From positions 12,192 to 76,191 of IMG/VR virus record IMGVR_UViG_3300009432_001268: DNA of 64,000 bases. The stretch is one strand, 5' to 3'. Shown here in pieces: positions 4,858-21,446 of the stretch. Position numbers and translations under genes: made by a program. The notes under the pieces were generated by a model. It was not told the DNA's origin. It worked only from the letters and a program-made list of their open reading frames with translations, and ran no database searches. The DNA is from a virus. Numbering within the stretch: the first letter of the stretch is position 1; the number at the start of each line of letters is the position of its first letter.

Positions 4858-4865
4858 CGGCCCCT

Positions 4866-4894
4866 ACCTTATTGTGTTCGGGGTTGCATGTCAA
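4866..4894 (-). promoter_or_regulatory. Sigma70-like promoter, TTGACA-N5-CCCCG class
   Basis: TTGACA TGCAACCCCGAACACAA TAAGGT (17 nt spacer), 8 nt upstream of the ATG at 4857. Confidence 0.6.
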
Positions 4895-4967
4895 GAACGG
4901 ATTTTTCTAAAGAGGGCCCTTATTTTATTTTTTACTAGTATTTTTGAAAAACCTTGAGGGAGTAGGC

Positions 4968-8444: not shown

Positions 8445-9160
8445 GCTGTGCCTCTTTCGTTAAAATCGATTCCATACTCACCACAAAGTGTCTTTATTTC
8501 AGTTGGGTATTCATTATAGGTCCATTTCCCTTTGTAAATCATGTTACCGTGAGGGTAAGCCACTGACTCCCAGTGGGCCAAGCCTCTTTTCCTCTCCTCT
8601 TCAAATGAAGACATGTAACATTTGTTATGAACAAAATTAGTAAAAATAGAATATATTTTAGATTCAAAGTCCCAAATATTAGTTGGGGCGCAAGAACTGA
8701 ACACGTCTAAAAGTTTGGATGCTTTACATAGGGTCGGTTGGATAGTAAAGGAGTATTGCTTAGGGCATGGGGAAAGGTCGGGGTGAACATCGGAAACTGG
8801 AAAGTCAAAATCTCCCGGTGTATCCATACATTTTAACAGTTTTATAAAATCCGCTTTGTCGTTTTTAATTAAATCGCAATATTCCTCTAAGGTATTATAT
8901 AGCGGGGTGTCGTAAAGAATCATGTCCTCGTGAGTGAAGAGTATTATTTCATCTCCCAATGGTAATAGGGCGTTCTTTATCCGGCTTGAGTACTCCAACT
9001 TTTGATCATAGTATGATGTTTCGTACGGTGTCAAAAAGTCATCTTCGCAATTGGCTAATACTTTTTTAGAATGCTTCGGGAAGTACTTATCCAACCGCCC
9101 AAAAAAAGCAGGCCATATATCTTTGCAATCAGTGTGGGTGTGTATAAAAAAGCTAAACAT
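8441..9160 (-). CDS. Hypothetical protein, possible glycosyltransferase
   Basis: 239 aa ORF inside the sugar cluster; HEDMIL DxD-like motif, WDFE. Confidence 0.5.
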   Translation of the reverse strand: MFSFFIHTHTDCKDIWPAFFGRLDKYFPKHSKKVLANCEDDFLTPYETSYYDQKLEYSSRIKNALLPLGDEIILFTHEDMILYDTPLYNTLEEYCDLIKNDKADFIKLLKCMDTPGDFDFPVSDVHPDLSPCPKQYSFTIQPTLCKASKLLDVFSSCAPTNIWDFESKIYSIFTNFVHNKCYMSSFEEERKRGLAHWESVAYPHGNMIYKGKWTYNEYPTEIKTLCGEYGIDFNERGTA

Positions 9161-9174
9161 TACTATTAGTTTTG

Positions 9175-10260
9175 TTAAGTTAAAAAAGATACTCCGCTAT
9201 TGATGTTATTAAGCTGTTGCTTTATCTCTTCCGAGTAGGGTCCCATCTCGCACAGTACTATAGGGTTTTCGTCTCCCTCTATTACTGATAAAGGCTCAAT
9301 CATTAAATCAGTGCCATAAAGTTTTTTTCCGTGCTTGTCTTTTGCGTTGTCAAGAATAGATACTACCATCTTTGGGTCTAATTTCAATGAAATTAGAAGT
9401 TGGGCGGGAAAATGGGCTCCGTACAGATAAAACTTTTGGGAAAGTTTATTGAGTTTTTTCACAATATTTTTGTAGTGGCCCAAGGTGTTAGTCAGGTCTT
9501 GAGTCAGGTTATTTGACTTGGATTTCTTTATTTCAAAAAAAACTGAATGATTTTTAAAATTTAAGACTTGCTCGACTTGGAATCCGCTTTTATCGAAAAG
9601 AAGAAAAGCCCTATTTTTATCGCAAAAAAAAGTGTGTTCAAAATGTAGCCCCAATGGTGGCATTAATTTATTTTTGTTTATGTATTCAAAATTAGGGATA
9701 GAGATAAAAATAGAACCATTGTCTTTCAAGCATTTCCTTAGCTCTTTTAGCGTATCGACTGGTTCGTACAGGTGTTCAAAAACATGAGACATTATGATAG
9801 TGTCTACTTTTTTGTTTTTAAAATGTTTTGAAAACCCTTCTCCCACGAAGCCGTCAATGTAAGTAACGTTTTTAGGTAAAGTCAAAGATGGGTCAATGTT
9901 TGGTTGGGCCACGGTCCAGCTTTTCGATTTAAGTAAAACTTTTTTTAATTTAAAAGACGGATCTCCTATCTCTAAGGCGTTATTTGGCTCGACAGAAGAT
10001 AGTATAAAATCTGCAAATTTTAAATAATGACCCTTCCATAAAGGACCAACTATGCTTATGTTATGGTTTTCATCATATATTTTTTCCAACCCCACTAAAT
10101 TTAGAAGCTGTATTCCTTTACATTTTTGGCACACTCCATAAACTAAGTCCTCAAAAGAAAATTTTTCTTTGTTTGTCGCCCCCATATAGATTGGAAATTG
10201 GGGGATACTCTCTATGAGGTCTAAAGACCCACTACCGCAAAAAACACAAATACTTCTCAT
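9175..10260 (-). CDS. Class I SAM-dependent methyltransferase (sugar C-methyltransferase-like architecture)
   Basis: N-terminal CxxC...CxxC, LEIG, SHVFEH, ISIPN, HFEH, LYGA, DNAKDKHG. Confidence 0.8.
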   Translation of the reverse strand: MRSICVFCGSGSLDLIESIPQFPIYMGATNKEKFSFEDLVYGVCQKCKGIQLLNLVGLEKIYDENHNISIVGPLWKGHYLKFADFILSSVEPNNALEIGDPSFKLKKVLLKSKSWTVAQPNIDPSLTLPKNVTYIDGFVGEGFSKHFKNKKVDTIIMSHVFEHLYEPVDTLKELRKCLKDNGSIFISIPNFEYINKNKLMPPLGLHFEHTFFCDKNRAFLLFDKSGFQVEQVLNFKNHSVFFEIKKSKSNNLTQDLTNTLGHYKNIVKKLNKLSQKFYLYGAHFPAQLLISLKLDPKMVVSILDNAKDKHGKKLYGTDLMIEPLSVIEGDENPIVLCEMGPYSEEIKQQLNNINSGVSFLT

Positions 10261-11123
10261 GGGTTACCTATTTTAAAATCGTTTTTGAGCATAGAGGAGG
10301 TTTTGTAGTAAAGGCCCACGTCTTTCATGAACCATTTTGCGCAATGGTGTGTGCTGATAGCCGTCCATCTAGGGTATTTGACTAAATTGCTGCTTCTTTC
10401 GCTAATAGGCTTTAGCGATTCGTTGGAGAATTCATCAAAAGCGTTACTGTCAAACCATCCGCTCTCTAGAGCTCTAGAGTAGTCGCTTTCCTTTTTAAAA
10501 TATTCAAAACACTTATCGTACCACGTTGAGATTAAATCTATATTATTAGAGTTGGAGTACCACCAGTGGTCGGCGTATCCCGCATTAAACTGGTACCAGA
10601 AAGGGGTGTGCACCTGCTCCATGGATGCAGAGGGGTTGAAGATAACGTCAGTGGGATAACACCCGGCTGGTTGGTAGTACTCTTTGCCGCGAGTCCCCAA
10701 GTCGAATCTTCCGAGAAAGACCGCGTCGTACAAAAAGCCGTTCTTCTTTTCGAATTGTTTTTTTATTTTTACCGCTTCTTTTCTAGAGTAAAGATAGCTC
10801 AAAATAATTTCCAGTTTGCACTCTTTGTACATTGTTTTTTCTCTTTCGAAGCCTTTATTGTACCAGTCTTCGTCCATTAGCGACAGCTCGCGAGAAAAGT
10901 CTTTTTGCTTTTCGACCTTGATCACCTTAATCCATTCCCCGTAAGTTTTTTTTATCTTTTTTTCGTTTTCTATGTCCCAAGAGTGAATAAAAATGTCTAC
11001 TTCTCCGTTGAGTTTATCGATAATCTGCTCTTTAACGTGGAGAAAAGCTTTTTCAGCCGCTACGGTGGTGGCGGTGTCTGATCGGCTAGAAAAATAACCG
11101 TTAAATAGTAATGCCGTTTTCAT
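10257..11123 (-). CDS. Hypothetical protein of the glycan cluster
   Basis: VDIFIHSWD, YDAVFLGRFDL, ADH motifs seen in GT-like phage proteins; ATGA overlaps. Confidence 0.55.
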   Translation of the reverse strand: MKTALLFNGYFSSRSDTATTVAAEKAFLHVKEQIIDKLNGEVDIFIHSWDIENEKKIKKTYGEWIKVIKVEKQKDFSRELSLMDEDWYNKGFEREKTMYKECKLEIILSYLYSRKEAVKIKKQFEKKNGFLYDAVFLGRFDLGTRGKEYYQPAGCYPTDVIFNPSASMEQVHTPFWYQFNAGYADHWWYSNSNNIDLISTWYDKCFEYFKKESDYSRALESGWFDSNAFDEFSNESLKPISERSSNLVKYPRWTAISTHHCAKWFMKDVGLYYKTSSMLKNDFKIGNP

Positions 11124-11722
11124 TTAAACAAATTAAAAGTTCTTAAGTCTCTGTAAGGGGGGTCTTCAACTTGGTCTTCCGCGTGTTCTGGGTAAGCCAT
11201 TAGGAGAGTTAGCCCTCTGGCGGCTTGTTCTGGTGTCATGTACATATTCCAACCGCCGTCTCCTAGGTGGTCGTCTTGAAAGGGAACGCCTATGGTGCGG
11301 CCTTCGTACCTCAACTGCCTTATGGTTTCTGTAGCTCTTTTGTCGTCCGTAAGAATCATGCCTCCTTTTCCTATTTTTAAGGGCTTTTTATGGTGGAAGG
11401 ACAGGCACATGTAGGAGCCGGGAACATACATCCCTGACGTTAACCTCTTAGCGGCGTCGTAAATGGGAAAAGGTTTAAGCTGGTAAATTCCGCTCCATTC
11501 AATATCTTCAAATTCTACCTTTGCTCCGGCTTGTAGTATCGATTGAGGAGGGGAGATATAAGTACGAGCGGGAATTGTTATTGTCGAACCTTGTACTTGT
11601 AAATATTTACAACAAAGAAATATGGCGTCGGTGCAACTATCGCAAGCAATAGCATAAGGAGCGCCGGTATATTCAGCGACTGCTTCCTCGAACCATTCAA
11701 CTATTTCAAAGGGGTTTCTCAT
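11120..11722 (-). CDS. Short DegT/DnrJ/EryC1/StrS PLP sugar aminotransferase
   Basis: FEEAVAEY, SCTDAI, YDAA, LSFHHKKPL (PLP lysine region), GGMILTDD. Confidence 0.85.
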   Translation of the reverse strand: MRNPFEIVEWFEEAVAEYTGAPYAIACDSCTDAIFLCCKYLQVQGSTITIPARTYISPPQSILQAGAKVEFEDIEWSGIYQLKPFPIYDAAKRLTSGMYVPGSYMCLSFHHKKPLKIGKGGMILTDDKRATETIRQLRYEGRTIGVPFQDDHLGDGGWNMYMTPEQAARGLTLLMAYPEHAEDQVEDPPYRDLRTFNLFK

Positions 11723-12093
11723 CTTTCCAAAACATAATACTTCTTCTTAAAGCCAGAACTTTCAAATAATTTTAAACTGGCTTCGTTATCTAACTTAATC
11801 TTAGCGAAAGCCTCCGGGTGCTTTTCCATAAAACTTTCCACCATGAGTTTAGCGACCCCTCTTCTTTGATATTCTTTTCTTGTACCGAGCCTTATATCGT
11901 TTTCCACATGCCCAATAAATCCTATAACCTTTCTCATGTGAGTACAGATTAAATAATTTTTAAAATGATGGGTCATATATTTGAAATGATCCTCGGGGGG
12001 GATAATGTCAGAATTGCCAAAACCTTCTCGGTTTTCGTTGCGAATTTCTAAAATGTCATCCCAGTGACAGGTTTCGCACTTTATTATTTCCAT
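11719..12093 (-). CDS. GNAT N-acetyltransferase
   Basis: YQRRGVA acetyl-CoA motif; NEASLKLFESSGF. Confidence 0.85.
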   Translation of the reverse strand: MEIIKCETCHWDDILEIRNENREGFGNSDIIPPEDHFKYMTHHFKNYLICTHMRKVIGFIGHVENDIRLGTRKEYQRRGVAKLMVESFMEKHPEAFAKIKLDNEASLKLFESSGFKKKYYVLER

Positions 12094-12893
12094 ACGTCCT
12101 CCTCGTGAAGGACAGGGTGGTCAGAGTTGCCCCAGTGAGCTAGTAGGTATGTTCTGCTAGATTTCCACCCTTCTAACTGAAGGAGAGGCCCCAGCGAAGA
12201 CCCTATGTCCATGTACTGGTTGTCGCCGTGATCTTTAAAGAGGTCGTAGCATAAAAAGTTGCTAAGTGTGGCGGCAGAAAAAAGGAATAAATGATTAGAA
12301 ATATCATTTTCTTTTGTCCACTCACTAATCTCTTTAGGCAAATCAAAATTGTTTACCATGCAGTTGCTGCCGATTGGAAAGAACTTCTTTACTTTAAAAG
12401 GTAATTTGTCCAGTTTAGAGTTCTCATTGGCCACCAAAACTATATCTTTACCCTCGAACAAAGGAAGCATTTCTTTAATAAAACGAGAATAGTTTCCATT
12501 TATCATTACGTTACAAAAAGATAGACTTCCCCAGTCGTCCGGGCCGTACAATTCCGTACAAAATTTCCAAGATTGTCCGCCATCCAAACTGTTCTGTCCC
12601 GGAATGCCTTTTATATAATTCTTTTTCTTAAATTTGAAAGCTTCTATGAGCTTTTCGTGCTCTCTTTTATTGAGGGAAGGGATAAAGCTTTTTTGTTCCT
12701 CGGGCATGTAGCTGTTAGCGTAAACTTTTTGGTCGCCGTGAATATCTCCTTGGATGAAGTGATCTTCAGCGAGAACAACAGTCTTGTTTCTCAGCACCGT
12801 AACCTCTCCGTCTGAGAAGCGAGAAAAAGCAAAAGGGGTTCTATCCTTGACGAGGGCTAGAATTCTGTCAAATTCTTCTTTATAATTCTTCAT
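12084..12893 (-). CDS. Putative GT-D fold glycosyltransferase
   Basis: FAFSRFSDGE near the N-terminus and MDIGS near the C-terminus. Confidence 0.6.
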   Translation of the reverse strand: MKNYKEEFDRILALVKDRTPFAFSRFSDGEVTVLRNKTVVLAEDHFIQGDIHGDQKVYANSYMPEEQKSFIPSLNKREHEKLIEAFKFKKKNYIKGIPGQNSLDGGQSWKFCTELYGPDDWGSLSFCNVMINGNYSRFIKEMLPLFEGKDIVLVANENSKLDKLPFKVKKFFPIGSNCMVNNFDLPKEISEWTKENDISNHLFLFSAATLSNFLCYDLFKDHGDNQYMDIGSSLGPLLQLEGWKSSRTYLLAHWGNSDHPVLHEEDVWK

Positions 12894-13788
12894 CTACAAA
12901 GTCTAGGTTGAGTCCTCCAATGTGTCGTGGCATCCATCCTGTAACTTGGGTTATTTTGGAGGTATCCACTGAGTAGCGAACGTCTTGCCCCCAACGATCC
13001 TCTACGTGCTGGATCTCTGCGTCAGTCTTGTTAAATTTTTTTATTATAGTCTGCACTACTTCCTTGTTTGTAAAATGATTATTAGCTGCGATATTAAAGC
13101 AATCATTTGTAATCCCTTTTTCTATGATGCTCATTATACCGTCAACATTATCCTTTACATAAGTCCAATCCCTTACGTAAGAGCCATCCCCATGGAGGGG
13201 TATTTTACTGCCGTCTTTCAGGCAAGAAATGGCTTTAGCTACGAGCTTCTCTTCATACTGTCTGCTGCCGTAGTTATTGCCGCTTCGGCTTACCACGTAC
13301 TCGATCCCGTAAGTTCGGTGGTAAGAGTTTATTAGCATCTCCGAACAGGCTTTGGTCGCTGAATAGGGGTTGCTCGGGTTAAGTTTATCATTTTCTTTGA
13401 AGGCTCCCTCGGTTATGTCACCGTAAACTTCGTCCGTGCTGATGTGAAAAAAGAGAGGGCGTTTATATTTCGGCTTGGTTCTTATGAGCTCCAGTAGGTT
13501 GTGTACACCTATAACGTTTGACTCTATAAAAGGAGCGCAGTTCGTTATGGAGTTATCCACGTGGCTTTCTGCTGCAAAATTAACAACTATATCGCAAGTG
13601 GGAAGGTGCCTTATGTTGGCAATGTTACCATGCGTTAACGTATAGTTTTTATCTTTATCCCAAGGAAGCGATCGGTGAGAAGCGTATCCCATCTTGTCTA
13701 TGTCATAAACGCGCCACCCTTTTTCTAGGGCGCTCTCGACAAAATGGCTTCCTATAAAGCCTCTGCCGCCTGTTACTGTAACTTTCAT
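12880..13788 (-). CDS. rfbB: dTDP-glucose 4,6-dehydratase
   Basis: VTGGRGFIGS, NFAAESHVD, ISTDEVYG, PSNPYSATK, NNYG, RDWTYV, DRWGQDVRY; start set at MKVTVTGG (ATGA overlap). Confidence 0.93.
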   Translation of the reverse strand: MKVTVTGGRGFIGSHFVESALEKGWRVYDIDKMGYASHRSLPWDKDKNYTLTHGNIANIRHLPTCDIVVNFAAESHVDNSITNCAPFIESNVIGVHNLLELIRTKPKYKRPLFFHISTDEVYGDITEGAFKENDKLNPSNPYSATKACSEMLINSYHRTYGIEYVVSRSGNNYGSRQYEEKLVAKAISCLKDGSKIPLHGDGSYVRDWTYVKDNVDGIMSIIEKGITNDCFNIAANNHFTNKEVVQTIIKKFNKTDAEIQHVEDRWGQDVRYSVDTSKITQVTGWMPRHIGGLNLDFVDEEL

Positions 13789-14789
13789 AGCAGTTGTAAT
13801 ATTTTCTCCGCTGCTTTGCCGTCTCCAAAAGGGCACTCTCCTTCTGGGGTAAAGTCTTCTTTTACTTTATTAAAGAGATTGGGAAGCTCCCCAACTGATT
13901 TACATAGATAAGTGAAAGTTCCTAACGCTTCGGGCCTTTCAGTAGTCTCCCTACAAACAATAACTTTCTTCTTCAAGAACGATGCTTCTTCTTGAAGGCC
14001 CCCGCTATCCGTGATCAAAAAACGGCAAGCAGTTATTCTTTTTATGAATTCTTTATGGGGAAGAGGTTGTATGGCTCTAACATTACTTAGCGGTTTCTTG
14101 AATGTCCCTTTGGAGTCCGGGTTGGGGTGAGATATAAAAACAAAATTTAAAGTGGGGTTCTCGGAGGCTATCTCTTCTATTTGCTGATACCAGAAAGGTA
14201 TCAGTTTGTGGTTTTCTCTCCGGTGAAGGGTTATTAGAATGTCGTTATTGTAACTAACGTCAGCCGTTGTTAGGTGGTCGAGAACAGTATTTCCTACCAC
14301 ATGCATTTCTCCTTTAACGTTTTCGTTTATAAGGTTTGTTTTGTTTGCTTCGGTGGCGCATAAGTGTACGTCAGTTAGGCGAGAAATACTTTGTCTGTAA
14401 GTCTCCTCGGGGTATGGGTGCCTCTTGTCATGGGTTCTCAGTCCTGCTTCGAGATGAATTACCCCTAACCCTTTGTTGAATGCAGTCAAAGCGCAAGCAA
14501 AGGCTGACGCCGTGTCTCCTTGAACCATTACGTGAGTGAAGCCGTCTTCTAAAATTTGATCGAAAGCATAAGACCCAGTTATAAAAGAGAAAATTGAATT
14601 TAGTCTGTTGGGGGAGCAGTTATTAATTTCGAGGGAGTAATTAGGTTTTAAGCCTCCGTCTAGTAGGTCTGTATGCTGCCCCGTGCACAAGGAAGATATA
14701 TTGTGGTACTGCACCAGACAGTTCTTTAAAATTGGTGAAATCTTAATGAGCTCAGGCCGAGTTCCGTAGCAAATTAATATTTTTTTCAT
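13785..14789 (-). CDS. wecB: UDP-N-acetylglucosamine 2-epimerase (non-hydrolysing)
   Basis: GTRPELIK, TGQH, QGDT, HLEAGLRT, PEE, TLHRREN, TDSGGLQEE, TERPE, PFGDG. Confidence 0.95.
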   Translation of the reverse strand: MKKILICYGTRPELIKISPILKNCLVQYHNISSLCTGQHTDLLDGGLKPNYSLEINNCSPNRLNSIFSFITGSYAFDQILEDGFTHVMVQGDTASAFACALTAFNKGLGVIHLEAGLRTHDKRHPYPEETYRQSISRLTDVHLCATEANKTNLINENVKGEMHVVGNTVLDHLTTADVSYNNDILITLHRRENHKLIPFWYQQIEEIASENPTLNFVFISHPNPDSKGTFKKPLSNVRAIQPLPHKEFIKRITACRFLITDSGGLQEEASFLKKKVIVCRETTERPEALGTFTYLCKSVGELPNLFNKVKEDFTPEGECPFGDGKAAEKILQLL

Positions 14790-15514
14790 AGGCTCATAGG
14801 TTTGAACCCCTTGTCGATAGTAGTCTTTAGGGCTTGGCCAAAAGATGAAGCATGGTGGTTAACTGAAATAGCGTTCTTGTCTACCCCGTACTCAAAGGCT
14901 AACTTGGGATGGGATCCCCACATTTCCATATCGCCCCTTGGGTGAGGGGGAACAAAGGTTCCTAGGCCCAAGTGTTTTTGAATGGAGTAAGAAAAGTGCA
15001 TGTCTTCTCCGCATATTCTGCTTTCTGGGACAGGAGCCTCCCTCCAAAAAGCTCCGAGCCATTCCCTTTTAAAGAACCAGCTATGCCCGACTATGTCTAC
15101 TTGTTTTGTTTCCTCGTTGGGGTTAGCCCAGCCGTGCCTGTCATAATTTATGTAATTTTCATCCTTAAATATGACGCCGATAGCACCTAAGAGCCCTTCC
15201 TGTTTTTCAATGGTGCTTAAACAATTTTCCAGCCACTTAGAGCCGGGAATAGTGTCGTCGTCAAACACACAAACATATTCGGTGGTTGCGTTAAGCGCGT
15301 AAGCAAAACGAGCCCACACTCCAAAATTGGCGTTGTTGACAGTGACTATACAGTCTCGAAGTAATGAATAATCAAATTTCTCATCACTGTCTTTGTTCTG
15401 CCAAAACATAACGGTATCCGGAGAGACCGTTTGTCGTGCTAGCGCGTCGATTTGGGCCTTTAGGGTGTGAGGCCTGCGGTACCCGTTCAAAATTACTGTT
15501 ATTTTTTTATTCAC
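14786..15514 (-). CDS. GT-A fold glycosyltransferase (GT2-like)
   Basis: TVILNGYRR, VFDDDTIP DxD motif, GEDMHFS. Confidence 0.78.
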   Translation of the reverse strand: MNKKITVILNGYRRPHTLKAQIDALARQTVSPDTVMFWQNKDSDEKFDYSLLRDCIVTVNNANFGVWARFAYALNATTEYVCVFDDDTIPGSKWLENCLSTIEKQEGLLGAIGVIFKDENYINYDRHGWANPNEETKQVDIVGHSWFFKREWLGAFWREAPVPESRICGEDMHFSYSIQKHLGLGTFVPPHPRGDMEMWGSHPKLAFEYGVDKNAISVNHHASSFGQALKTTIDKGFKPMSL

Positions 15515-16352
15515 GAATACTCCTAAAGAAATCCCTAAACCCTTTTCGTTTCTCCCTCATAAAGTCTATCATTTCTTTTCCATCCTTTTTGTACCACGGT
15601 TCATATGAACATCCTATGAGGTTGTTTATTACCGTTTTGACTCCCATCATTTTAGCCTCAAGAACGAGCCTGCAGCAAGTTTCCGGGGTGGAAGGATAGA
15701 AAACTAAATGAGAATATTGAGAAAGTTTATGTAGAAACTTATCGTAGTCGCGATCTTCGATTATGTCGTATTGGATTTTTTCTTTCTCGCAAAATTCGAC
15801 AGATTCCTTAACACCTTTCTGGGGATAAAGGGAATTAACTATGGCGTAGCGAGATCGCTTTGGCGTTTCAAGAAGGCTTTCGAGAAGGTCTAAATGCTTC
15901 TCTGACCATAGGTTACCCGAAAAGCTGACGGTTTTATCCGGACACTTTAGGTTTTTATCGTAAATGTCTTTCTGAAACTGGGTTTGGCAAATTATTTTGT
16001 GGGAAGCCTTATGAAACTCTACGTTTATTAAGTCTTTTGGGGGGACAATTTGATTGGGATATACAGCGGGGTTGGTATGTTGTACAAATTTATAATCATG
16101 GCAGTACAATATGTATTTGCACTTACTTTGTATAAGGTCCCGAATGGCGGGACTAATCCCGAAGAAGTTGGAAATTATAAAGAAAGAGTCGAGGTTCTCT
16201 TGGACGAACCCCTCGTAAAGGTAACGACTTTTTATTTTTTGTACATCGAAACGCTCAGATAAGAGTCTGTATATCTCTTCATCATTTAAAGCTGCTCCGC
16301 CTACAAAATCATCAATAAAAAAATCACTTATTAATATAACCTTATCATTCAA
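15507..16352 (-). CDS. GT-B fold glycosyltransferase
   Basis: GGAALND, YCHDY, QKG, ETCCRLVLEAKMMG (E-x7-E); probable TTG start overlapping the upstream stop. Confidence 0.7.
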   Translation of the reverse strand: MNDKVILISDFFIDDFVGGAALNDEEIYRLLSERFDVQKIKSRYLYEGFVQENLDSFFIISNFFGISPAIRDLIQSKCKYILYCHDYKFVQHTNPAVYPNQIVPPKDLINVEFHKASHKIICQTQFQKDIYDKNLKCPDKTVSFSGNLWSEKHLDLLESLLETPKRSRYAIVNSLYPQKGVKESVEFCEKEKIQYDIIEDRDYDKFLHKLSQYSHLVFYPSTPETCCRLVLEAKMMGVKTVINNLIGCSYEPWYKKDGKEMIDFMREKRKGFRDFFRSIRE

Positions 16353-16686
16353 ATCTGCTTGGATCTTTGGGGTGTTTTCCCCCTTTTCTCTTTGCTGAGT
16401 AGTCCTTAAAAAATTGTTTTTTAACTGGGTCCTCCCCTTGCTGTTTCGTTCTCTTTTCAGAAGCGATAGCCGACTGGTCCCATATGTCTCCAATAGTTCC
16501 TTTTGCTTTTTGCCTAAACTCAGATGGGGAATTGGGATCTATTCTGGTATCTATCGCAGCATGAGGAACGGTGTAGATTCGGTTGTAAGACACCCCTTCT
16601 ATCTCATAAGAGTGTTCTTCGTGAACGCTCTGCCACACATTAACCAGTTCGCCGGTATCTGGGTTTTCGTAAACATATTCAGGCAT
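16345..16686 (-). CDS. FmdB-like small protein (Cys-less variant)
   Basis: MPEYVYENPDTGE N-terminus resembles MPxYxY FmdB family; basic C-terminus. Confidence 0.5.
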   Translation of the reverse strand: MPEYVYENPDTGELVNVWQSVHEEHSYEIEGVSYNRIYTVPHAAIDTRIDPNSPSEFRQKAKGTIGDIWDQSAIASEKRTKQQGEDPVKKQFFKDYSAKRKGGKHPKDPSRFE

Positions 16687-17767
16687 CCATAACCTCCATA
16701 ATTGCGTCAACAGTCTTTTTGTAAGTGAATTTCTCTTGGAGTTCAAGGCCAGCGGTATTCTCTGGGGAGGCTTTGTATCTTTCTATCGCCTTCTCGCAGC
16801 CATCAATGAAGGCGTCTTCGTCAAAGGTGAAAATTTTACCCTGATTGTAAGGGTTTCCTTTTTTGAAAAATATTCCGTCAGCCGAGTCTTCTTTACCGTT
16901 AGGTTCTACTAGGACGCTATTTTCGTCGGTCGCCCACTCCTTGTAGGCTGAAGCATTTAAAATAACAGAGTGTTTTCCGAGGGCTACGGATTGGAACTCG
17001 GGAAGGCCCCATCCTTCTGCACCGGACATCCCCAGTATAATATTTCCAGAATTAAGGAAGTCATTATAGAGGACGTTCTTCTGCATCATCCCTAGGAAGT
17101 TGATGTTGAAGTAAGACTTCCCTTCCATGATCTGACTTAGGCACCCTTTAAAATCCGCCTCTTTTATAAAAGGGTTAGCTATGGCGCACTGCAGAACATA
17201 GTCTTTATTGTTTCCGTATTTCTTTAGCCACGCTTGGATTACTTTTTTGTGGTGTTTTCTTTTCTCGAGCTTTCCTGTTAGGTTAAATACTATTTTACCT
17301 TTTAGGTAGTCTTCTTTTTTGACATTAAAATTATCTTTATCAAAGCCTAGGGGAATATATTTGCAGTTGTCTACTCCGTAGCTCTCCAGAACTTCTTTGG
17401 TATAATGGGAGCTTACTGCTAGGTTCTTCTGGTTTTTAGCTATGTTAACCTCTATGGACGTGGGGTTGTCCAATTCATAGAAGGTAAAAAGTGTTTGGTC
17501 TTTTGCATAAGACGTTAGGCTGTCGTGGTTTAAGTGCCACAGTTTAAAAATTGGGGTGTTTCGGTCGTACTGTTCAAAAGCTTTCTTTATTCCCGACTCG
17601 ATCCACTTATTAAAGTCGGGGCTAGTATCTTGTGAACTTAGGTCTGATTGGCCTATTGTAAACAGACAAGGCTGCACGCCCTTCTGGTGAAACTCACGCA
17701 AAAGGGCTGTGCTAACCTGTCCGAAACTTACACCATTAAGTGGAAGATGTAAGGCGAAGTCCGACAT
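16679..17767 (-). CDS. Glycosyltransferase family 4 (GT-B)
   Basis: IPLGFD, RK, AEGWGLPEFQSVALGK. Confidence 0.85.
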   Translation of the reverse strand: MSDFALHLPLNGVSFGQVSTALLREFHQKGVQPCLFTIGQSDLSSQDTSPDFNKWIESGIKKAFEQYDRNTPIFKLWHLNHDSLTSYAKDQTLFTFYELDNPTSIEVNIAKNQKNLAVSSHYTKEVLESYGVDNCKYIPLGFDKDNFNVKKEDYLKGKIVFNLTGKLEKRKHHKKVIQAWLKKYGNNKDYVLQCAIANPFIKEADFKGCLSQIMEGKSYFNINFLGMMQKNVLYNDFLNSGNIILGMSGAEGWGLPEFQSVALGKHSVILNASAYKEWATDENSVLVEPNGKEDSADGIFFKKGNPYNQGKIFTFDEDAFIDGCEKAIERYKASPENTAGLELQEKFTYKKTVDAIMEVMDA

Positions 17768-18079
17768 CTAAAACAATGTTTCCTCATCTGACGAAGTCGC
17801 TGCCGCAGCTTTTTCTTGGGTAGCTTCCTTCCCAGATCCCTGCTGCTGCTCGCGGCTTTCGCTTTTGTACACTTGGAAGTCAGGAGCTTTGTCGTTAGCA
17901 ATGCTTCCGTCTTCGTTGTATTTGCTTTTGTTCTTGAAGATTACCAGTTGCAACTTACCTGTCGAATCTTTCAGTTCGATGTGGCCAGTCATGTACTGTG
18001 TGCCGCTAACGCTCTTCTTTACCCAAAGAGCACCAAGTTCGCGCTCTTTCCATTCGTTGTTCTTTTGTTCGTTCGACAT
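17768..18079 (-). CDS. Putative single-stranded DNA-binding protein (DUF736-like)
   Basis: LGALW..GTQYMTG..FKN..KAPDF core; low-complexity linker; acidic-aromatic tail SSDEETLF. Confidence 0.55.
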   Translation of the reverse strand: MSNEQKNNEWKERELGALWVKKSVSGTQYMTGHIELKDSTGKLQLVIFKNKSKYNEDGSIANDKAPDFQVYKSESREQQQGSGKEATQEKAAAATSSDEETLF

Positions 18080-18089
18080 AAGAGTCTGT

Positions 18090-18118
18090 ATATTGTACCA
18101 AGCGGGGAGGCTTGTCAA
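18090..18118 (-). promoter_or_regulatory. Sigma70-like promoter, TTGACA-N5-CCCCG class
   Basis: TTGACA AGCCTCCCCGCTTGGTA CAATAT, just upstream of the ATG at 18079. Confidence 0.6.
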
Positions 18119-18128
18119 CACTTTTTTT

Positions 18129-18731
18129 TCAAATAGAATCGAGAAACTTTTTGCTTGTTATTTTCCTTCTCAAAACTGCTATTCCCCGGTTGTGTAGATT
18201 GATTGCGGTTTGGGTGCTCACGTTTAACTCTTCTGCCACCTTGCACCATGACGGCTTTTTGTGTTGAGTGGAATATCTCATTGAGAAAATATCTTTTATC
18301 CTTTTGTCCTTGAGCTGATTAAGAATATTTCCGGTGAACTCAAAGAGGTTTCTTTCTGGCTCTTCATCGGGTCTTTCTCTAAGTATTTCAAGTATTTCGT
18401 CTTCTGTGGATACCAGCCGATCTTTTGACTTCTTATTTAAGGCGTTAAGGCAGCTGTATTTGACTTGGTTGGCTAGCCAAGTAGAGAATTTTACATTTTT
18501 ATCAATGTTAAAACTCTTGGCGGAGTTCCAAATAATTAAATTTTTATCAGAGGAGGCATCAATGATGTTTATATTGTTTGCGTAGAAGGGACTGGCGTAT
18601 CTTTTTATTACTTTAAAGCAGATAGGTGAGTGACGCTTTATCAGCTCCTCTAAGCTTTTCTCGCAATTAGTCAGTTTAATTCTTTCGACTAGATAGTTAT
18701 CGCTTACATTATCCCAACATCCTTTTTCCAT
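18129..18731 (-). CDS. Phage RNA polymerase sigma factor (sigma70 regions 2 and 4)
   Basis: SDNYLV..LEELIKRH; region 2 KSFN..KFSTWLANQVK; HTH region 4 KVAEELNVSTQT. Confidence 0.85.
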   Translation of the reverse strand: MEKGCWDNVSDNYLVERIKLTNCEKSLEELIKRHSPICFKVIKRYASPFYANNINIIDASSDKNLIIWNSAKSFNIDKNVKFSTWLANQVKYSCLNALNKKSKDRLVSTEDEILEILRERPDEEPERNLFEFTGNILNQLKDKRIKDIFSMRYSTQHKKPSWCKVAEELNVSTQTAINLHNRGIAVLRRKITSKKFLDSI

Positions 18732-19147
18732 AAATCCACCTTATTCCCGAAGTTTCCGAACGAACAACCGCTATCCTCCTCCATGTCAAGGGCATAGCGC
18801 TCATGCTTCTTAAACATACGTGGTAGAATTATAGAGTATTCGATTAGATCGTCAAAGTTTTTTTCTAAAAAAACATTAGCGTCAGAAAACGGAGCTTCAA
18901 AAGGATCGCTAGATTCGACGATTGTCTCTACGAGGAAGGAGAAATCTGAATCCGTATCATCAGAGAATAAACAACTATCGAAGCGGCAAATCTTAATATC
19001 ATAAGAGAAAAACGCATTAAGTTCGTTGAACTTTAGATTATGTACTTGAGTAAGGGTGTCGGGGTGCAGGCTAAGCTCAGCGCCTATTCCACAGCAAGCC
19101 GCTATGGGTTGGCATGAGATGTCGACAAGAGAAGATCCTTCAAACAT
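18704..19147 (-). CDS. Hypothetical protein
   Basis: 147 aa ORF overlapping both neighbours in the operon. Confidence 0.55.
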   Translation of the reverse strand: MFEGSSLVDISCQPIAACCGIGAELSLHPDTLTQVHNLKFNELNAFFSYDIKICRFDSCLFSDDTDSDFSFLVETIVESSDPFEAPFSDANVFLEKNFDDLIEYSIILPRMFKKHERYALDMEEDSGCSFGNFGNKVDLWKKDVGIM

Positions 19148-19733
19148 ACAATTTCTTTACCCATTTTAGCATCTGGGAGGCAGAAATTATTTTTTTTGTT
19201 TCGTTTTTTTCACTTTTCCAATTAAGAATGAAGTCTGCTTCTCGTTTTACTAGGGCGTCGTTTTCTCTTTCTTCTTCATTGGCTGGGGGGAAATACACTC
19301 TTTTTCCATTTACTTCCTCATACCTAGAGAGATGGATTAAAACTCCATTTATTTCGTTTTTCAACCAATACACTTCGTCTTTTTCGTACCGATTAAACCT
19401 TACGTCCGTAATAATATTAATTTTATCCGCCGCTAATTCTTTATTTAACAGGTCTACCCAATGCCTACCGTTTGATAAATTTCTTTTTATTACCCCGTGA
19501 GCTACTAGGAAAGGGCGGATCTTATCCTTTTCCTCCCTAGTGCAATTAGACGAATCAATTCCATAAAGTTCACGGGAAGCCGAAGATATTTCCTGTTTTA
19601 ATTTGTTTGCAATAGCTAGCTCCCTGTACGGTAGCTCCATCCTTTGCAATAATTTAATTATAATAGTCGAGAGCGTATTCTTCCCGCACCCTGCTACACC
19701 TGAGATACCTATGTTTTTATACTTAAACTTCAT
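19140..19733 (-). CDS. Deoxynucleoside monophosphate kinase
   Basis: IGISGVAGCGKNT P-loop, ANKLK, IITDVRF, ADFIL. Confidence 0.82.
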   Translation of the reverse strand: MKFKYKNIGISGVAGCGKNTLSTIIIKLLQRMELPYRELAIANKLKQEISSASRELYGIDSSNCTREEKDKIRPFLVAHGVIKRNLSNGRHWVDLLNKELAADKINIITDVRFNRYEKDEVYWLKNEINGVLIHLSRYEEVNGKRVYFPPANEEERENDALVKREADFILNWKSEKNETKKIISASQMLKWVKKLYV

Positions 19734-19746
19734 TTAACTTAACTTC

Positions 19747-19771
19747 TATTATTATTATGATAATAATAATA
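19747..19771. repeat. Perfect 12 bp AT-only inverted repeat
   Basis: TATTATTATTAT-G-ATAATAATAATA. Confidence 0.85.
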
Positions 19772-19839
19772 TTTTTATATTTAATTTCGTAGAACGCAAT
19801 GTATTGACAGTAACTTTTTCAAGGAAATATACAGAAGAC

Positions 19840-20207
19840 ACTGCCCCCGAGTCAAGGGGGCAGTTGACTTCCTTTAACAGAACTTTTCTGAGGGGCGCTA
19901 TCTTTTATTTTATGTCGTAGGCCAAACGACGGAAGTGTGACCAGTTAATATTAAATTAACAACAGAGCACCTTTTTAAGGGCGGTAGGAACCATGCTAAT
20001 AACCTACGCTTACCTCTGTCATGCTCATCACCTCGGGCACGAGGCTGGTATTTAACCAGCGGTTTTTTTATTCCCAGTCACAATGGGGTCACTTTAGCTA
20101 CTAAAGAGCGTGAGCAGTGGACTCCACACCCGCGATGGGGCTCTTAGTAGAAAACTCCGGGATTTCTCCCCAAAGACAAAACGGGTTCGGACCGTTTTTC
20201 ACGCACA
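19840..20207 (-). ncRNA. Candidate large structured non-coding RNA or leader
   Basis: ORF-free; about ten stems, including nested long-range ones; GGGA-GAAA-UCCC tetraloop; G-U pairs work only on the minus strand; preceded by a TTGACA promoter. Confidence 0.6.
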
Positions 20208-20213
20208 GCAAGT

Positions 20214-20242
20214 GTTTTAATACACACGGGGAACGATGTCAA
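20214..20242 (-). promoter_or_regulatory. Sigma70-like promoter, TTGACA-N5-CCCCG class, facing the structured RNA
   Basis: TTGACA TCGTTCCCCGTGTGTAT TAAAAC. Confidence 0.6.
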
Positions 20243-20312
20243 CCTTTTCTTCTGTTTGATTTTTGAAAAACTTTTAGCTCTATCCCTCCCGGGGGAAAAT
20301 CAGGAATTTAGC

Positions 20313-20341
20313 TTGACTTGTTTCCCCTGTTGTAATAGATT
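20313..20341 (+). promoter_or_regulatory. Sigma70-like promoter, TTGACT-N5-CCCC class
   Basis: TTGACT TGTTTCCCCTGTTGTAA TAGATT, upstream of the dCMP deaminase. Confidence 0.6.
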
Positions 20342-20350
20342 TAGTCCCTA

Positions 20351-20761
20351 GTGAGGATCTCGTGGGAACAATACGCACTTAATATCGCTCAAACTGCCTC
20401 TAGCAGAAGCGAAGATCATTACGTTAAAGTAGGTGCATGCGCTTTAAATTCTCAACGAATGGTCGTTTCGGTGGGCTACAACGGTTTAGCTTCAGGAAAG
20501 GACGTTTCCTATGATTTCTGGAGAAACCGAGATTACCGCAGAAAATTCATGATTCATGCCGAAGTGAACTGTTTGAGTCTCTTTAAGAAAGGGGAAGCGG
20601 AAATGCTTGCCACCACGTTGCTGCCGTGTTCTTCTTGCGCGACGTTAATAGCGAGCTACGGAATATCCAAGGTAGTTTATACGGATGTTTACGAACGGGA
20701 CACCCAAGCTTTAGAAATTTTTGACTTTTACAACATAGAATGCATTAAATATGGAAGTTAA
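20351..20761 (+). CDS. dCMP deaminase
   Basis: KVGAC, GYNG, HAE, PCSSC zinc motifs. Confidence 0.93.
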   Translation: MRISWEQYALNIAQTASSRSEDHYVKVGACALNSQRMVVSVGYNGLASGKDVSYDFWRNRDYRRKFMIHAEVNCLSLFKKGEAEMLATTLLPCSSCATLIASYGISKVVYTDVYERDTQALEIFDFYNIECIKYGS

Positions 20762-21224
20762 ATACTCAAAACTCCACCCCGAAGGAAAAGAGCCGTTTCG
20801 CGCAAACACATCAGATGCCGGATACGATCTCTTTTCAACAGAATACGTCACCCTAGAGCCCTTTCAGAGAAAGCTTATTTCCACTGGCATCAACGTGGAG
20901 ATCCCAGAAGGTTTCTACGGTAGAGTGGCCCCGAGGAGCGGTTTAGCGTGTAAGAAAGGTATAGATGTGATGGCAGGGGTAATAGACTCAGGCTATCGAG
21001 GGGAAGTAAAAGTTTTATTGATAAATTTAAACTTCGAAGGATATAATTTAATGCCTAACACTTTTGAAACAATGTTTGGATCAGCAAATAAGATGGAAAT
21101 TAAACCGGGCGACAGAATAGCTCAGCTAATTATCGAAAAATGTCACAGCGTTGAGTGGAAACCTATGGAGACACTAGAAGAATCCCAAAGAGGAGAGCAA
21201 GGCTTCGGCAGCTCTGGTCAATAA
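20751..21224 (+). CDS. dut: Trimeric dUTPase
   Basis: AGYDL, PRSG, GVIDSGYRGE, GDRIAQLI, RGEQGFGSSG. Confidence 0.96.
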   Translation: MEVKYSKLHPEGKEPFRANTSDAGYDLFSTEYVTLEPFQRKLISTGINVEIPEGFYGRVAPRSGLACKKGIDVMAGVIDSGYRGEVKVLLINLNFEGYNLMPNTFETMFGSANKMEIKPGDRIAQLIIEKCHSVEWKPMETLEESQRGEQGFGSSGQ

Positions 21225-21230
21225 CGCGCC

Positions 21231-21446
21231 ATGCATCAACAAAATCCCCCGCACGCGGAAATAATGTCCCATAATGTCAAAATGATAGGAGCCGATGTTC
21301 ATGTCATTAAAAACGGCGGTTGGAGAGGAAAAGTGGAGGAGATGGTCGATGAAGAATACTTTATGGTTTCCAGATTCGACAATCCTACGGACATAGAAAA
21401 GGTGTCAATGTACGATATACGCTCCCTATCTTACGAGACTTTATGA
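21231..21446 (+). CDS. Hypothetical protein (small beta-barrel-like)
   Basis: 71 aa ORF following dut. Confidence 0.55.
   Translation: MHQQNPPHAEIMSHNVKMIGADVHVIKNGGWRGKVEEMVDEEYFMVSRFDNPTDIEKVSMYDIRSLSYETL

What the first reader, a model, noticed from the sequence alone, without database searches (positions are those of the whole stretch)
19840..20207. Probable ~360 nt multi-domain structured RNA at the head of the replication operon
Minus-strand, ORF-free sequence downstream of a TTGACA-17-TAAAAC promoter folds into many stems: AAAACGG/CCGUUUU; GGGA-GAAA-UCCC (GNRA loop); CUACUAAGAGC/GCUCUUUAGUAG enclosing GUGG/CCAC; and a long-range UGUGACUGG/CUGGUCACA. That last stem encloses GCUGGU/ACCAGC, CCUCG/CGAGG, GACAGAG/CUCUGUU (with inner GCGUAGG/CCUACCGC) and GUUAAU/AUUAAC. 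Then come GUCGU/ACGAC and a final ACUGCCCCC/GGGGGCAGU. The long-range stem closes through G-U pairs on the minus strand and has C-A mismatches on the plus strand, which points to an RNA and fixes its strand. I do not recognise it as tmRNA, RNase P, a tRNA or an intron. It could be a new phage ncRNA, a regulatory leader or a replication primer RNA.
Basis: partly seen in the sequence, partly recalled or inferred. Interest (0 to 1): 0.78.

Follow-up and report, generated by a model that had tools for sequence, protein, structure and literature searches.

The report
New folded RNA gene of marine phages
The gap holds a real gene for an intricately folded, knotted RNA of about 380 bases that makes no protein, has its own promoter and terminator, belongs to no catalogued RNA family, and in sister phages is swapped for a quite different folded RNA; what it does is still unknown.

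Summary
Observation confirmed. Window 20208-19825 (minus strand) is a promoter-to-terminator unit for a roughly 380-nt structured RNA ("type A").

- **Fold.** On 10 related sequences, my 96-pair structure is 95.6% paired. 21 pairs keep pairing through changes on both sides, against 0-5 in slid controls.
- **Strand.** 78 G-U cells against 11 A-C cells fix the minus strand.
- **Family.** No Rfam 15 family matches and no tRNA or tmRNA is found.
- **Expression.** In one seawater RNA library, near-identical contigs cover only 19878-20234 of a 2.6-kb stretch.

- A model of the 3' domain finds distant homologues ("type C") next to 41-47%-identical kinase genes. There the RNA has its own promoter and terminator, and the kinase has its own promoter. 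In some genomes opposite-strand genes sit between the two. The RNA is therefore an autonomous gene, not necessarily a kinase leader.
- Most close relatives carry an unrelated, strongly covarying RNA of about 275 nt ("type B") in the same slot. The swap runs from the transcription start to the kinase ATG.
- Each genome tested holds only one type.

Function is unknown. I favour a trans-acting RNA particle, with an attenuator leader as the main rival. The scan met this family before on other DNA (e1-5910973, e1-5910982).

The parts
20214..20271 (-). Promoter. An A/T-rich block (TTTTTCAAAAATC, about 20271-20257), then -35 TTGACA at 20242-20237, a 17-base spacer with CCCC, then -10 TAAAAC at 20219-20214.
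   Evidence: Read directly. Conserved in type A and type B relatives (alignment A1). In these alignments only the hexamers, the CCCC and the A/T block are kept.
20206..20209 (-). Inferred transcription start, which is also the upstream edge of the swapped cassette.
   Evidence: The position lies 6-8 bases after the -10 (inference). Similarity to type B loci L039 and L040 stops at 20209. A contig of run X3 joins a type-B start to window-like sequence at 20209 (table 7).
20178..20198 (-). P1 hairpin: AAAACGG, a 7-nt loop UCCGAAC, then CCGUUUU.
   Evidence: 7 pairs that never vary in 8 rows. Type C has an analogous hairpin, AAAAGG...CCUUUU, at its 5' end (read by eye).
20155..20174 (-). P2 hairpin: UUU-G-GGGA, loop GAAA, UCCC-G-GAG (a GNRA tetraloop).
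   Evidence: 100% of cells paired, with two pairs showing G-C/G-U or U-A/U-G changes.
20098..20150 (-). P3 (20150-20140 with 20109-20098), enclosing P3a (20139-20137 with 20131-20129).
   Evidence: 5 of 11 P3 pairs have changes on both sides, and 100% of cells are paired.
20089..20120 (-). Pseudoknot: CCACU (20120-20116, inside the P3 loop) pairs with AGUGA (20093-20089, after P3).
   Evidence: 4 of 5 pairs have changes on both sides. It competes with the local GUGG/CCAC hairpin, which has 1 double change.
19936..20082 (-). P4 domain. The long-range helix 20082-20074 with 19944-19936 encloses an A7 linker, P5 (20059-20045), P6 (20044-20031), P7 (20020-20014 with 19967-19961), P7a (20009-19981), P7b (19980-19971) and P8 (19959-19945).
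   Evidence: Double changes: P4 3, P5 1, P6 2, P7 1, P7a 1, P7b 1, P8 2. Model R2 of this domain finds type C homologues. With them included, 26 of 36 pairs have double changes.
19914..19930 (-). P9 hairpin: GUCGU, loop UUGGCCU, ACGAC.
   Evidence: 5 pairs, one of them seen as U-A, U-G and C-G.
19878..19890 (-). P10 hairpin: CAGAA, loop AAG, UUCUG.
   Evidence: The stem sequence is the same in all lineages. The apparent mismatches in one lineage are a one-column alignment shift (read by eye).
19825..19871 (-). Intrinsic-terminator-like hairpin. Core CUGCCCCC/GGGGGCAG is 19863-19856 with 19848-19841. An extension GAAG/CUUC is 19871-19868 with 19837-19834. A U-rich tail is 19833-19825.
   Evidence: It tops the list of terminator-like sites in window 1-20000 (9 pairs, 7 G-C). 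The core never varies. The extended stem forms in the minimum-energy fold of 6 of the 7 rows folded (not L071). L007 and L006 have longer stems followed by U5 runs.
19802..19824 (-). Conserved box after the terminator, CCUUGAAAAAGUUACUGUCAAUA.
   Evidence: Kept in all type A lineages. A similar GCUUGA/AAAAAGU box follows the terminator in type C (read by eye). Its role is unknown.
19734..19801 (-). A/T-rich spacer up to the kinase ATG at 19733. This is the downstream end of the swapped cassette.
   Evidence: Similarity to type B loci resumes at 19733.
19140..19733 (-). Neighbouring gene: a dNMP-kinase-like P-loop protein of 197 aa.
   Evidence: PHROG 139, E 3.6e-12. There is no convincing Pfam, NCBIfam or PDB sequence match.
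20351..20761 (+). Neighbouring, divergently transcribed gene: dCMP deaminase.
   Evidence: Pfam PF00383, E 5.8e-16.

Best explanation
Window 20208-19825 (minus strand) is an autonomous gene for a structured non-coding RNA of about 380 nt.

**How it is made.** A strong sigma-70-type promoter (A/T-rich block, TTGACA, 17 bases, TAAAAC) starts transcription at about 20208.

**How it folds.**
- A 5' domain holds hairpins P1 and P2, plus a long helix P3 that is knotted to the following strand.
- A 3' domain is closed by a long-range helix P4 and contains five inner helices.
- Two small hairpins follow.
- A G+C-rich terminator hairpin with a U-rich tail ends most transcripts.

**What is shown.** The fold, its strand, the promoter and terminator geometry, and RNA-library coverage limited to this unit.

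**What is inferred.** The folded RNA itself is the product. It acts in trans, as an RNA or RNA-protein particle made early in infection. Its terminator also lowers or insulates transcription running on into the kinase, sigma-factor and replication operon.

**Family and exchange.** It is one member of a family (types A and C) spread through uncultured marine phages. By recombination it is replaced, one per genome, by an unrelated folded RNA (type B), which presumably does the same job. The molecular target is not known.
For: **Fold and strand.**
- 96 pairs are 95.6% paired, and 21 have changes on both sides, against 0-5 in slid controls. 0 of 500 shuffles reach the observed values on 4 of the 5 measures; further pair types is not above the shuffles.
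- 78 G-U cells against 11 A-C cells.
- With distant homologues added, 26 of 36 pairs of the 3' domain show double changes, against 5-11 in controls. This alignment was fitted to the model.

**Not coding.** The one shared stop-free frame has no start codon in the window, and its ends differ between lineages.

**Autonomy.**
- The terminator hairpin tops the list of terminator-like sites in 20 kb and is kept in all lineages.
- In 3 of the 4 type C lineages read (L092/L009, L115, L107; L010 has TTGACG and no clear -10), a TTGACA-17-TAnnnT promoter lies just before P1, and a strong terminator follows the RNA.
- In L092, L107 and L010 the kinase then has its own promoter a few bases before its ATG.
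- In L009, L012 and L091, one or two opposite-strand genes lie exactly between the RNA unit and the kinase promoter. One of them matches PHROG 3347 at E 6e-20.

**Expression.** In seawater RNA library X1, near-identical contigs cover 19878-20028 and 20029-20234. Depth is 0 elsewhere in 18700-21300, apart from two divergent contigs (10-13 differences) on the dUTPase gene at 21083-21234.

**Exchange with type B.**
- The swap edges are at 20209 and 19733.
- The kinase tree needs at least 6 changes of RNA type, 3 of them forced by well-supported branches.
- The type B model finds nothing in type A or C loci, and the type A models find nothing in type B loci.
- One type per genome: the 144-kb, about 90%-complete record G001 has one type B and no type A/C, with positive controls in the same search. 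The window's 64 kb has no type B.
Against: - **No promoter seen for the kinase here.** I found no recognisable promoter between the terminator and the kinase ATG in this window (read by eye). The operon may therefore depend on read-through, which is what a leader or attenuator would look like.
- **Type B lacks a canonical terminator** before the kinase ATG. At least that RNA is probably co-transcribed with the operon.
- **Orientation and distance fit a leader.** In all 13 type A and all 54 type B loci that hold a kinase gene, the RNA lies 35-107 nt upstream of it, in the same orientation. However, most of these loci were fetched through the kinase gene.
- **The expression evidence is thin.** It is one run, held as assembled contigs, at depth 2-9. 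It gives no strand and no transcript ends. One contig reaches 26 nt upstream of the inferred start.
- **Few lineages.** Type A has only about 5 independent lineages.
- **Partial homology to type C.** It is shown for the 3' domain only. The 5'-domain model R3 found none of the type C loci.
- **No partner or target is known**, so "trans-acting" is an inference from autonomy alone.
Confidence: 0.5

Rival explanations
1. A cis-acting leader: a riboswitch-like attenuator, or a put/EAR-like processive antiterminator. The folded RNA is the 5' untranslated region of the kinase, sigma-factor and replication operon. It decides whether RNA polymerase passes the terminator at 19864-19840 and goes on to transcribe about 20 kb.
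For: - The RNA sits between the only clear strong promoter and the first gene of a roughly 20-kb co-directional operon.
- The swapped cassette is exactly the stretch from the transcription start to the ATG.
- Type B has no canonical terminator, so it must be co-transcribed.
- GGAAG (19872-19868) can pair with CUUCC (19935-19931) or with CUUC (19837-19834). The second pairing lengthens the terminator so that it abuts the U-tract. In the L006 lineage all three segments change together: CUUUA, UAAAG and CUUU (read by eye).
- RNA-library cover on the leader alone also fits terminated leaders.
Against: - Type C homologues have their own promoter and terminator, while the kinase has a separate promoter. 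In L009, L012 and L091, opposite-strand genes lie between the two.
- Type B occurs in L118 and L119 without a kinase gene downstream.
- In L006 the two pairings use different copies of AAAGC and need not compete, and the core hairpin there already abuts a U-run.
- The column-wise count for the CUUCC/GGAAG helix is only 73% paired, with no double change (helix 13).
- No ligand or factor is indicated.
Confidence: 0.27
2. A self-processing or catalytic RNA: a new large ribozyme that cleaves or otherwise modifies itself or the early transcript.
For: - Pseudoknotted, multi-junction folds with long runs of invariant unpaired bases occur in types A, B and C.
- Known self-cleaving ribozymes are common in phage intergenic regions (recalled, not from a call).
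Against: - No match to any Rfam ribozyme family, even at E up to 10.
- No cleavage-site signature was recognised.
- Nothing in the RNA-library contigs marks a processing site. The contig break at 20028/20029 cannot be interpreted.
Confidence: 0.08
3. A replication-origin element. The transcript primes or opens DNA (an R-loop, like ColE1 RNA II or the T4 origins), helped by the adjacent A/T-rich tract and a convergent antisense promoter.
For: - It lies at a transcription divergence point in the replication and nucleotide module, next to a (TAA)n-rich tract at 19734-19800.
Against: - Selection acts on RNA pairing, including G-U pairs and a pseudoknot. That is not needed for an R-loop primer.
- The antisense TTGACA is missing in the L006 lineage.
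- Cumulative GC skew shows no turning point near 20 kb.
- The slot is filled by unrelated sequences in sister phages.
Confidence: 0.05
4. Not an RNA at all: a chance fold, a DNA-level element (protein-binding sites or single-stranded DNA hairpins), or a small protein gene.
For: - Folding energy is only modestly better than shuffles, and is equally so on both strands.
- A stop-free frame crosses part of the element in most of the lineages listed.
Against: - 21 pairs carry compensatory changes, and G-U use is asymmetric.
- The window has no start codon in that frame.
- RNA-library contigs cover the element.
Confidence: 0.03

Closest known systems
Large "ornate" orphan RNAs linked to phages and prophages (GOLLD, ROOL; also raiA and OLE)
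   Same: Hundreds of nucleotides long, with multi-junction, pseudoknotted and strongly covarying folds. They are carried by phages, are not cis-regulatory by context, and have no known function. Their description here is recalled, plus the abstract of PMC12286853 seen in the listing.
   Different: There is no sequence or structure match to their Rfam models. This RNA is smaller (about 380 nt, against about 580-800 for ROOL and GOLLD, as recalled). No tRNA genes were found anywhere in the window. Nothing is known about oligomerisation.
Terminator-based riboswitch and attenuator leaders (for example cobalamin and T-box leaders)
   Same: A conserved, complex fold lies just after a promoter, is followed by an intrinsic terminator, and sits upstream of and co-oriented with an operon.
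   Different: Much larger than most aptamers. No Rfam riboswitch matches. No convincing mutually exclusive antiterminator was found. Homologues stand apart from any downstream co-oriented gene.
HK022 put RNAs and the Bacillus EAR element (cis-acting RNAs that make RNA polymerase resist terminators)
   Same: A folded RNA placed just after an early promoter, or inside a long operon. In this window the operon includes a glycan-synthesis cluster.
   Different: Those RNAs are about 70-120 nt (recalled). There is no Rfam match. Here the RNA ends in its own terminator, and its homologues are separate units.
phi29-family pRNA (a phage-encoded structural RNA of the packaging motor)
   Same: A phage-encoded, promoter-driven, non-coding RNA whose fold, not its sequence, is conserved among relatives.
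   Different: There is no Rfam match. The phage type differs: this one has lambda-like tail genes and related records of about 145-165 kb. There is no link to packaging genes.

Membership tests
Any Rfam 15 family (4227 covariance models) | Score at or above the family's gathering threshold | tested here: not met
   0 matches in the whole window. At E up to 10 on 19700-20400 the only match is RAGATH-19, at 16.8 bits against a threshold of 85.6. Relatives of types A, B and C also give 0 matches.
tRNA / tmRNA | Cloverleaf or tRNA-like domain with a tag reading frame | tested here: not met
   ARAGORN finds 0 genes in the window.
Terminator-type riboswitch or attenuator leader | Conserved structured domain directly upstream of an intrinsic terminator | tested here: met
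   The covarying fold is followed by the terminator-like hairpin that tops the list for 20 kb.
Terminator-type riboswitch or attenuator leader | Mutually exclusive terminator and antiterminator pairings that covary | tested here: inconclusive
   CUUCC/GGAAG competes with GAAG/CUUC in the window. In L006, however, the two pairings use different repeats. The column count is 73% paired with no double change.
Terminator-type riboswitch or attenuator leader | Always in cis, upstream of the regulated, co-oriented gene | tested here: not met
   In L009, L012 and L091 the homologous RNA is followed by opposite-strand genes. In L092, L107 and L010 the kinase has its own promoter.
Autonomous ncRNA gene | Own promoter directly upstream of the first helix | tested here: met
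   TTGACA-17-TAAAAC in the window, conserved in relatives. TTGACA-17-TAnnnT lies before P1 in type C loci L092/L009, L115 and L107. L010 is unclear. These are consensus matches, not mapped starts.
Autonomous ncRNA gene | Own terminator, and a transcript that accumulates apart from its neighbours | tested here: inconclusive
   The terminator is conserved. RNA-library contigs cover 19878-20234 only. This is a single run, held as contigs, with no strand and no ends.
GOLLD / ROOL | Match to the family covariance model | tested here: not met
   No match at the gathering score, or at E up to 10.
Type A/C family defined here | P4 domain: a long-range helix enclosing an A-rich linker, P5, P6, P7, P7a (with an AGCAYRGU loop) and P7b | tested here: met
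   The window scores 182.9 bits with model R2. Type C loci score 20.7-50.5 bits over the full model length, with 26 of 36 pairs showing double changes.

The most novel reading that the evidence does not exclude
Types A/C and B, and perhaps further long leaders seen beside more distant kinase genes, are unrelated folds that fill one and the same role early in infection. There is one per genome, and they are exchanged by recombination like alleles. That would define a new functional class of phage RNA. It could be a trans-acting particle that binds or reprograms a host or phage machine such as RNA polymerase. It could instead be several aptamer classes for one signal that gates the kinase, sigma-factor and replication operon.
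Probability: 0.3. Interest if true: 0.85.

Novelty: new member of a known kind. Interest (0 to 1): 0.62.

Why it matters
Large RNAs with conserved, knotted folds are rare. Most of those understood so far turned out to be ribozymes, riboswitches or cores of RNA-protein machines.

Here a group of abundant, uncultured marine phages, with related records of about 145-165 kb, reserves a strongly promoted early slot for such an RNA. They keep it across kinase divergence down to about 40% identity. In sister genomes they swap it cleanly for an unrelated fold. That pattern argues for an important function that can nevertheless be replaced.

The family now has enough diversity (types A and C) for a full covariation model. 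Types A and B give a natural pair for testing whether two folds do one job. Finding the partner or ligand would add a new piece to phage early gene control or host take-over.

Tried and rejected
**Searches and tests that led nowhere**
- **Similarity searches.** blastn of the gap against 50,697 phage records found nothing. The kinase protein has only three weak matches there, all Thermus phages at 36% identity over 37% of its length.
- **Motif scans.** Two type A motifs each found the same 2 viral contigs. One of them found nothing in the 185,579-species genome set.
- **Are types A and B related?** A MAFFT alignment suggested a shared GUAG-YUAARGUGA motif. The covariance models do not cross-match, and the motif plays different structural roles in the two RNAs. 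I rejected the homology.
- **RNAalifold on type A** gave a different 5' fold built largely from pairs that never vary. I replaced it with a structure chosen for covariation.
- **Other families.** From memory I considered RNase P-like, cobalamin-riboswitch-like, hammerhead-like, 6S-like and T-box-like readings. None has an Rfam match.
- **A tertiary contact** between the J6/7 strand and the P7a loop (CAUG or UGUG with CAYG or CACA) fits some lineages and not others. I left it open.
- **Kinase structure.** The AlphaFold model was poor (pLDDT 57.7) and I did not use it. The PDB profile search gave only P-loop noise.
- **The conserved protein of about 140 aa** upstream of type C is not related to the window's 147-aa protein.
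- **The genome search with model R2** missed known type C copies, so its own control failed. The empty answers count for nothing. I replaced them with a direct cmsearch on the fetched record.
- **Parts of the window without RNA-library cover** are not evidence that those parts are silent.

**Literature**
- Two full-text searches listed no paper on this RNA.
- PMC10690425: I read passages only. It reports 8,495 candidate structured RNAs of 29-151 nt from IMG/VR. Pieces of type B, and less likely of type A, could be among them.
- Preprint 10.64898/2026.09.15.751765: I read passages only. It does not mention phages.
Full report
**Setting.** The window comes from a large uncultured marine phage.
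- It encodes DnaB, a tubulin/FtsZ-like protein, RecA, a glycan-synthesis cluster, an ECF-type sigma factor, dCMP deaminase, dUTPase, Hsp20, a class II ribonucleotide reductase and lambda-like tail genes.
- The nearest cultured relative by the reductase is Maribacter phage Panino, at 52% identity.
- No whole genome is held for the window.
- The finding lies in a 617-nt gap (19734-20350). On one side is a dNMP-kinase-like gene (19140-19733, minus strand; PHROG 139). On the other is the divergently transcribed dCMP deaminase (20351-20761, plus strand).

- Folding energy alone is weak. The z-score is -2.37 on the minus strand and -2.79 on the plus strand.
- The test therefore had to be comparative. 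Searches with the kinase and deaminase proteins fetched 26 viral and 80 metagenome loci.
- blastn found the element ("type A") in the window, L052, L007 (the same as L051 and L027), L054, L089 and the L006 group (L028, L076, L077, L079). It is partly present in L071 and L047.
It is 95.6% paired over 811 cells.
- 21 pairs keep pairing through changes on both sides, in 52 cells. Sliding the 3' partners by 1-3 columns gives 0-5 such pairs and 40-47% pairing. 0 of 500 shuffles reach the observed values on 4 of the 5 measures; the fifth, further pair types, is not above the shuffles (41 against a mean of 43.8; 477 of 500 reach it).
- The structure was derived from these sequences, so the pairing percentage is biased upward. 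The count of double changes is the robust part.
- The long helix P3 has 5 double-changed pairs, and the long-range helix P4 has 3 across about 200 nt. P6 and P8 have 2 each. One lineage carries an insert of about 65 nt in the P8 loop, as expected of a variable hairpin tip.
- The strand is fixed by 78 G-U cells against 11 A-C cells.
Its 3' half covaries at 4 of 5 positions with AGUGA after P3, which makes a pseudoknot.
- No conserved ORF exists. One frame is stop-free over the most conserved part, but it has no start codon in the window and different ends in each lineage.

**Not a known family.** Rfam 15 gives nothing at gathering thresholds for the window or for relatives, and only noise at E up to 10. 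ARAGORN finds no tRNA or tmRNA.

**Expression.**
- One seawater metatranscriptome (X1, held as contigs) has two near-identical contigs: 19878-20028 with 0 differences, and 20029-20234 with 2.
- The rest of 18700-21300 has depth 0, apart from two divergent contigs (10-13 differences) on the conserved dUTPase gene.
- This fits an RNA far more abundant than its neighbours. It is still one run, without strand or ends, and one contig reaches 26 nt upstream of the inferred start.

**A second RNA in the same slot.**
- Most close relatives, including L038 whose kinase is 91% identical to the window's, carry a different element of about 275 nt ("type B") after the same promoter.
- On 25 sequences RNAalifold gives 59 pairs, 27 of them with double changes. 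These include a long-range helix and a loop-to-strand pseudoknot.
- A type B model (R1) finds nothing in the window or in the type A loci at E up to 10. The type A models find nothing in type B loci.
- Similarity between the window and type B loci stops at 20209 and resumes at the kinase ATG, 19733. A contig of run X3 joins a type B start to window-like promoter sequence at 20209. The exchanged cassette is thus the 475 nt from the transcription start to the ATG.
- On a kinase tree of 52 rows, the A/B label needs at least 6 changes, 3 of them forced by well-supported branches. The window is sister to a type B locus.

**Distant homologues change the reading.**
- Kinase genes of only 41-47% identity also have long ORF-free stretches beside them.
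- A model of the type A P4 domain (R2, 154 positions) matches one group of these ("type C") over its full length:

| Locus | Bits | E-value |
|---|---|---|
| L107 | 50.5 | 2e-9 |
| L010 | 50 | 3e-9 |
| L092, L009, L012 | 36.3 | 5e-6 |
| L008 | 32 | 5.5e-5 |
| L097 | 28.5 | 3.7e-4 |
| L115 | 20.7 | 0.03 |

  (All.)
- On the model-fitted alignment of 12 rows, 26 of 36 pairs have double changes and 90.3% of cells pair. Slid controls give 5-11 such pairs and 36-52% pairing.
- Shared features are the A-rich linker, the P5 loop, a GUAA after P7 and the AGCAYRGU loop of P7a.
- The 5'-domain model (R3) did not find type C. By eye, type C begins with a P1-like hairpin and a P2-like helix ending in GGAGUUU. 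Homology is therefore shown for the 3' domain and is only plausible for the rest.

**Type C units are autonomous.**
- In L092/L009, L115 and L107, a TTGACA-17-TAnnnT promoter lies just before P1. In the first two, the -35 sits in the last codons of a conserved gene of about 140 aa. L010 is unclear.
- All type C units end in strong terminators.
- The kinase then has its own promoter a few bases before its ATG, for example TTGACT-17-TACATT.
- In L009, L012 and L091, one or two opposite-strand genes lie exactly between the RNA unit and that promoter. One is sulfotransferase-like (PHROG 3347, E 6e-20). The RNA there is 99% identical to that of L092, which lacks these genes.
- Such an insertion between two units shows that the RNA is not a leader of the kinase in those genomes.
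- Type B also occurs without a kinase gene downstream, in two contigs binned into bacterial genomes (L118, L119).

**One type per genome.**
- The 144-kb record G001, about 90% complete, has exactly one type B. A direct cmsearch of the whole record found no type A/C, with type C positive controls in the same call.
- The window's 64 kb has no type B.
- The type C record G003, 79% complete, has no type B.
- This is few genomes, but it fits the two RNAs being alternatives.

**How it most likely works.**
- Shown: a strongly promoted, compactly folded, knotted RNA of about 380 nt on the minus strand. It ends in the terminator-like hairpin that tops the list for 20 kb, and it is covered alone in one RNA library.
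- Inferred: it is a gene in its own right whose folded RNA is the product, made early and acting in trans on an unknown partner. In this window its terminator also limits transcription into the kinase, sigma-factor and replication operon. I give this 0.5.
- The main rival, at 0.27, is a cis-acting attenuator or antitermination leader. In its favour:
  - I could not find a kinase promoter downstream of the terminator in the window.
  - Type B lacks a terminator.
  - GGAAG (19872-19868) can pair either with CUUCC (19935-19931) or with CUUC (19837-19834), and all three segments change together in the L006 lineage.
- Against that switch: in L006 the two pairings use different repeats, and the core hairpin already abuts a U-run.
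- Ribozyme, origin-primer and not-an-RNA readings get 0.08, 0.05 and 0.03.

**Comparison with what is known.**
- The closest kind is the orphan "ornate" phage-linked RNAs (GOLLD, ROOL), but it is not a member of those families.
- It resembles terminator-type leaders in layout, but fails the test of always lying in cis.
- Two literature searches found no description. A catalogue of short viral RNA candidates may hold fragments in supplements that I could not open.
- Earlier agents of this scan reached the same basic verdict on a related phage (e1-5910973, e1-5910982).
- New here: the homology between types A and C, the evidence for autonomy, the exact swap edges, the one-type-per-genome test and the RNA-library cover.

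**Verdict.** This is a real new family of structured phage RNA of unknown function. Its kind, an orphan structured ncRNA, is known, so I rate it a new member of a known kind, with interest 0.62.

Noticed in passing
L001:2695-2960 (also about 50 other loci, for example L038:1193-1466): Type B is an RNA of about 275 nt, unrelated to type A, found in the same slot after the same promoter. RNAalifold gives 59 pairs, 27 with double changes, including a long-range GCAAUCU/AGAUUGC helix and a hairpin-loop pseudoknot. It has no Rfam match.
   Followed up: partly
L118:5866-6260 and L119:2560-2998 (minus strand): Type B copies sit in contigs binned into Verrucomicrobia and Alphaproteobacteria genomes. 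They have no kinase gene downstream and no TTGACA promoter. A shared element resembling a pseudoknot follows them (GCCCC...UGGAG...GGGGCUCCA). In L120, the RNA follows a window-like deaminase gene, and bacterial-looking genes come next, so that contig may be an assembly chimera.
   Followed up: partly
L009:1611-2980, L012:2235-2990, L091:1-1450: One or two opposite-strand genes are inserted exactly between the type C RNA unit and the kinase promoter. One is sulfotransferase-like (PHROG 3347). L092 has the same RNA without them.
   Followed up: yes
L102:995-1488 (the same as L096), L112:1046-1485, L011:2710-2988: Further long ORF-free stretches (280-490 nt) lie upstream of distant kinase homologues, some with clear TTGACA-type promoters. 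They match none of types A, B or C and no Rfam family. They may be more RNA types for this slot.
   Followed up: partly
L092:586-1053, L107:525-938, L115:641-1081, L010:2110-2532, L009:783-1262, L102:590-994: A conserved protein of about 140 aa (34-61% identity, no PHROG match) lies directly upstream of the type C RNA. In some loci the RNA promoter's -35 lies within its last codons.
   Followed up: partly
window 20031-20070 (+) and 19804-19809 (+): On the plus strand, the P6 and P5 hairpins are followed by T7, which is terminator-like. A TTGACA lies on the plus strand inside the box after the terminator and could drive an antisense transcript of about 220 nt. That TTGACA is absent from the L006 lineage.
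   Followed up: partly
window 20209-20234: The RNA-library contig reaches 26 nt upstream of the start inferred from the -10. Either the start lies further upstream, or a few DNA or read-through reads are included.
   Followed up: no
window 19919-19925 (P9 loop): The P9 loop UUGGCCU holds a palindromic GGCC (GGUC in the L006 lineage). Type C has a hairpin with a similar UUGGC loop, but placed in its 5' domain. It might form a kissing-loop or dimer contact.
   Followed up: no
L007:761-864, L003:884-985, L001:948-1051: The 5'-domain model R3 gives weak matches (16 bits, E about 0.06) at the same relative place in three loci, about 2 kb from the RNA and near the hsp20 gene. They are probably noise.
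   Followed up: no
window 1344-2624 (-), 3324-4409 (-), 2-1315 (-): The long minus-strand operon downstream of the RNA includes genes for a tubulin/FtsZ-like GTPase, RecA and a DnaB helicase.
   Followed up: no
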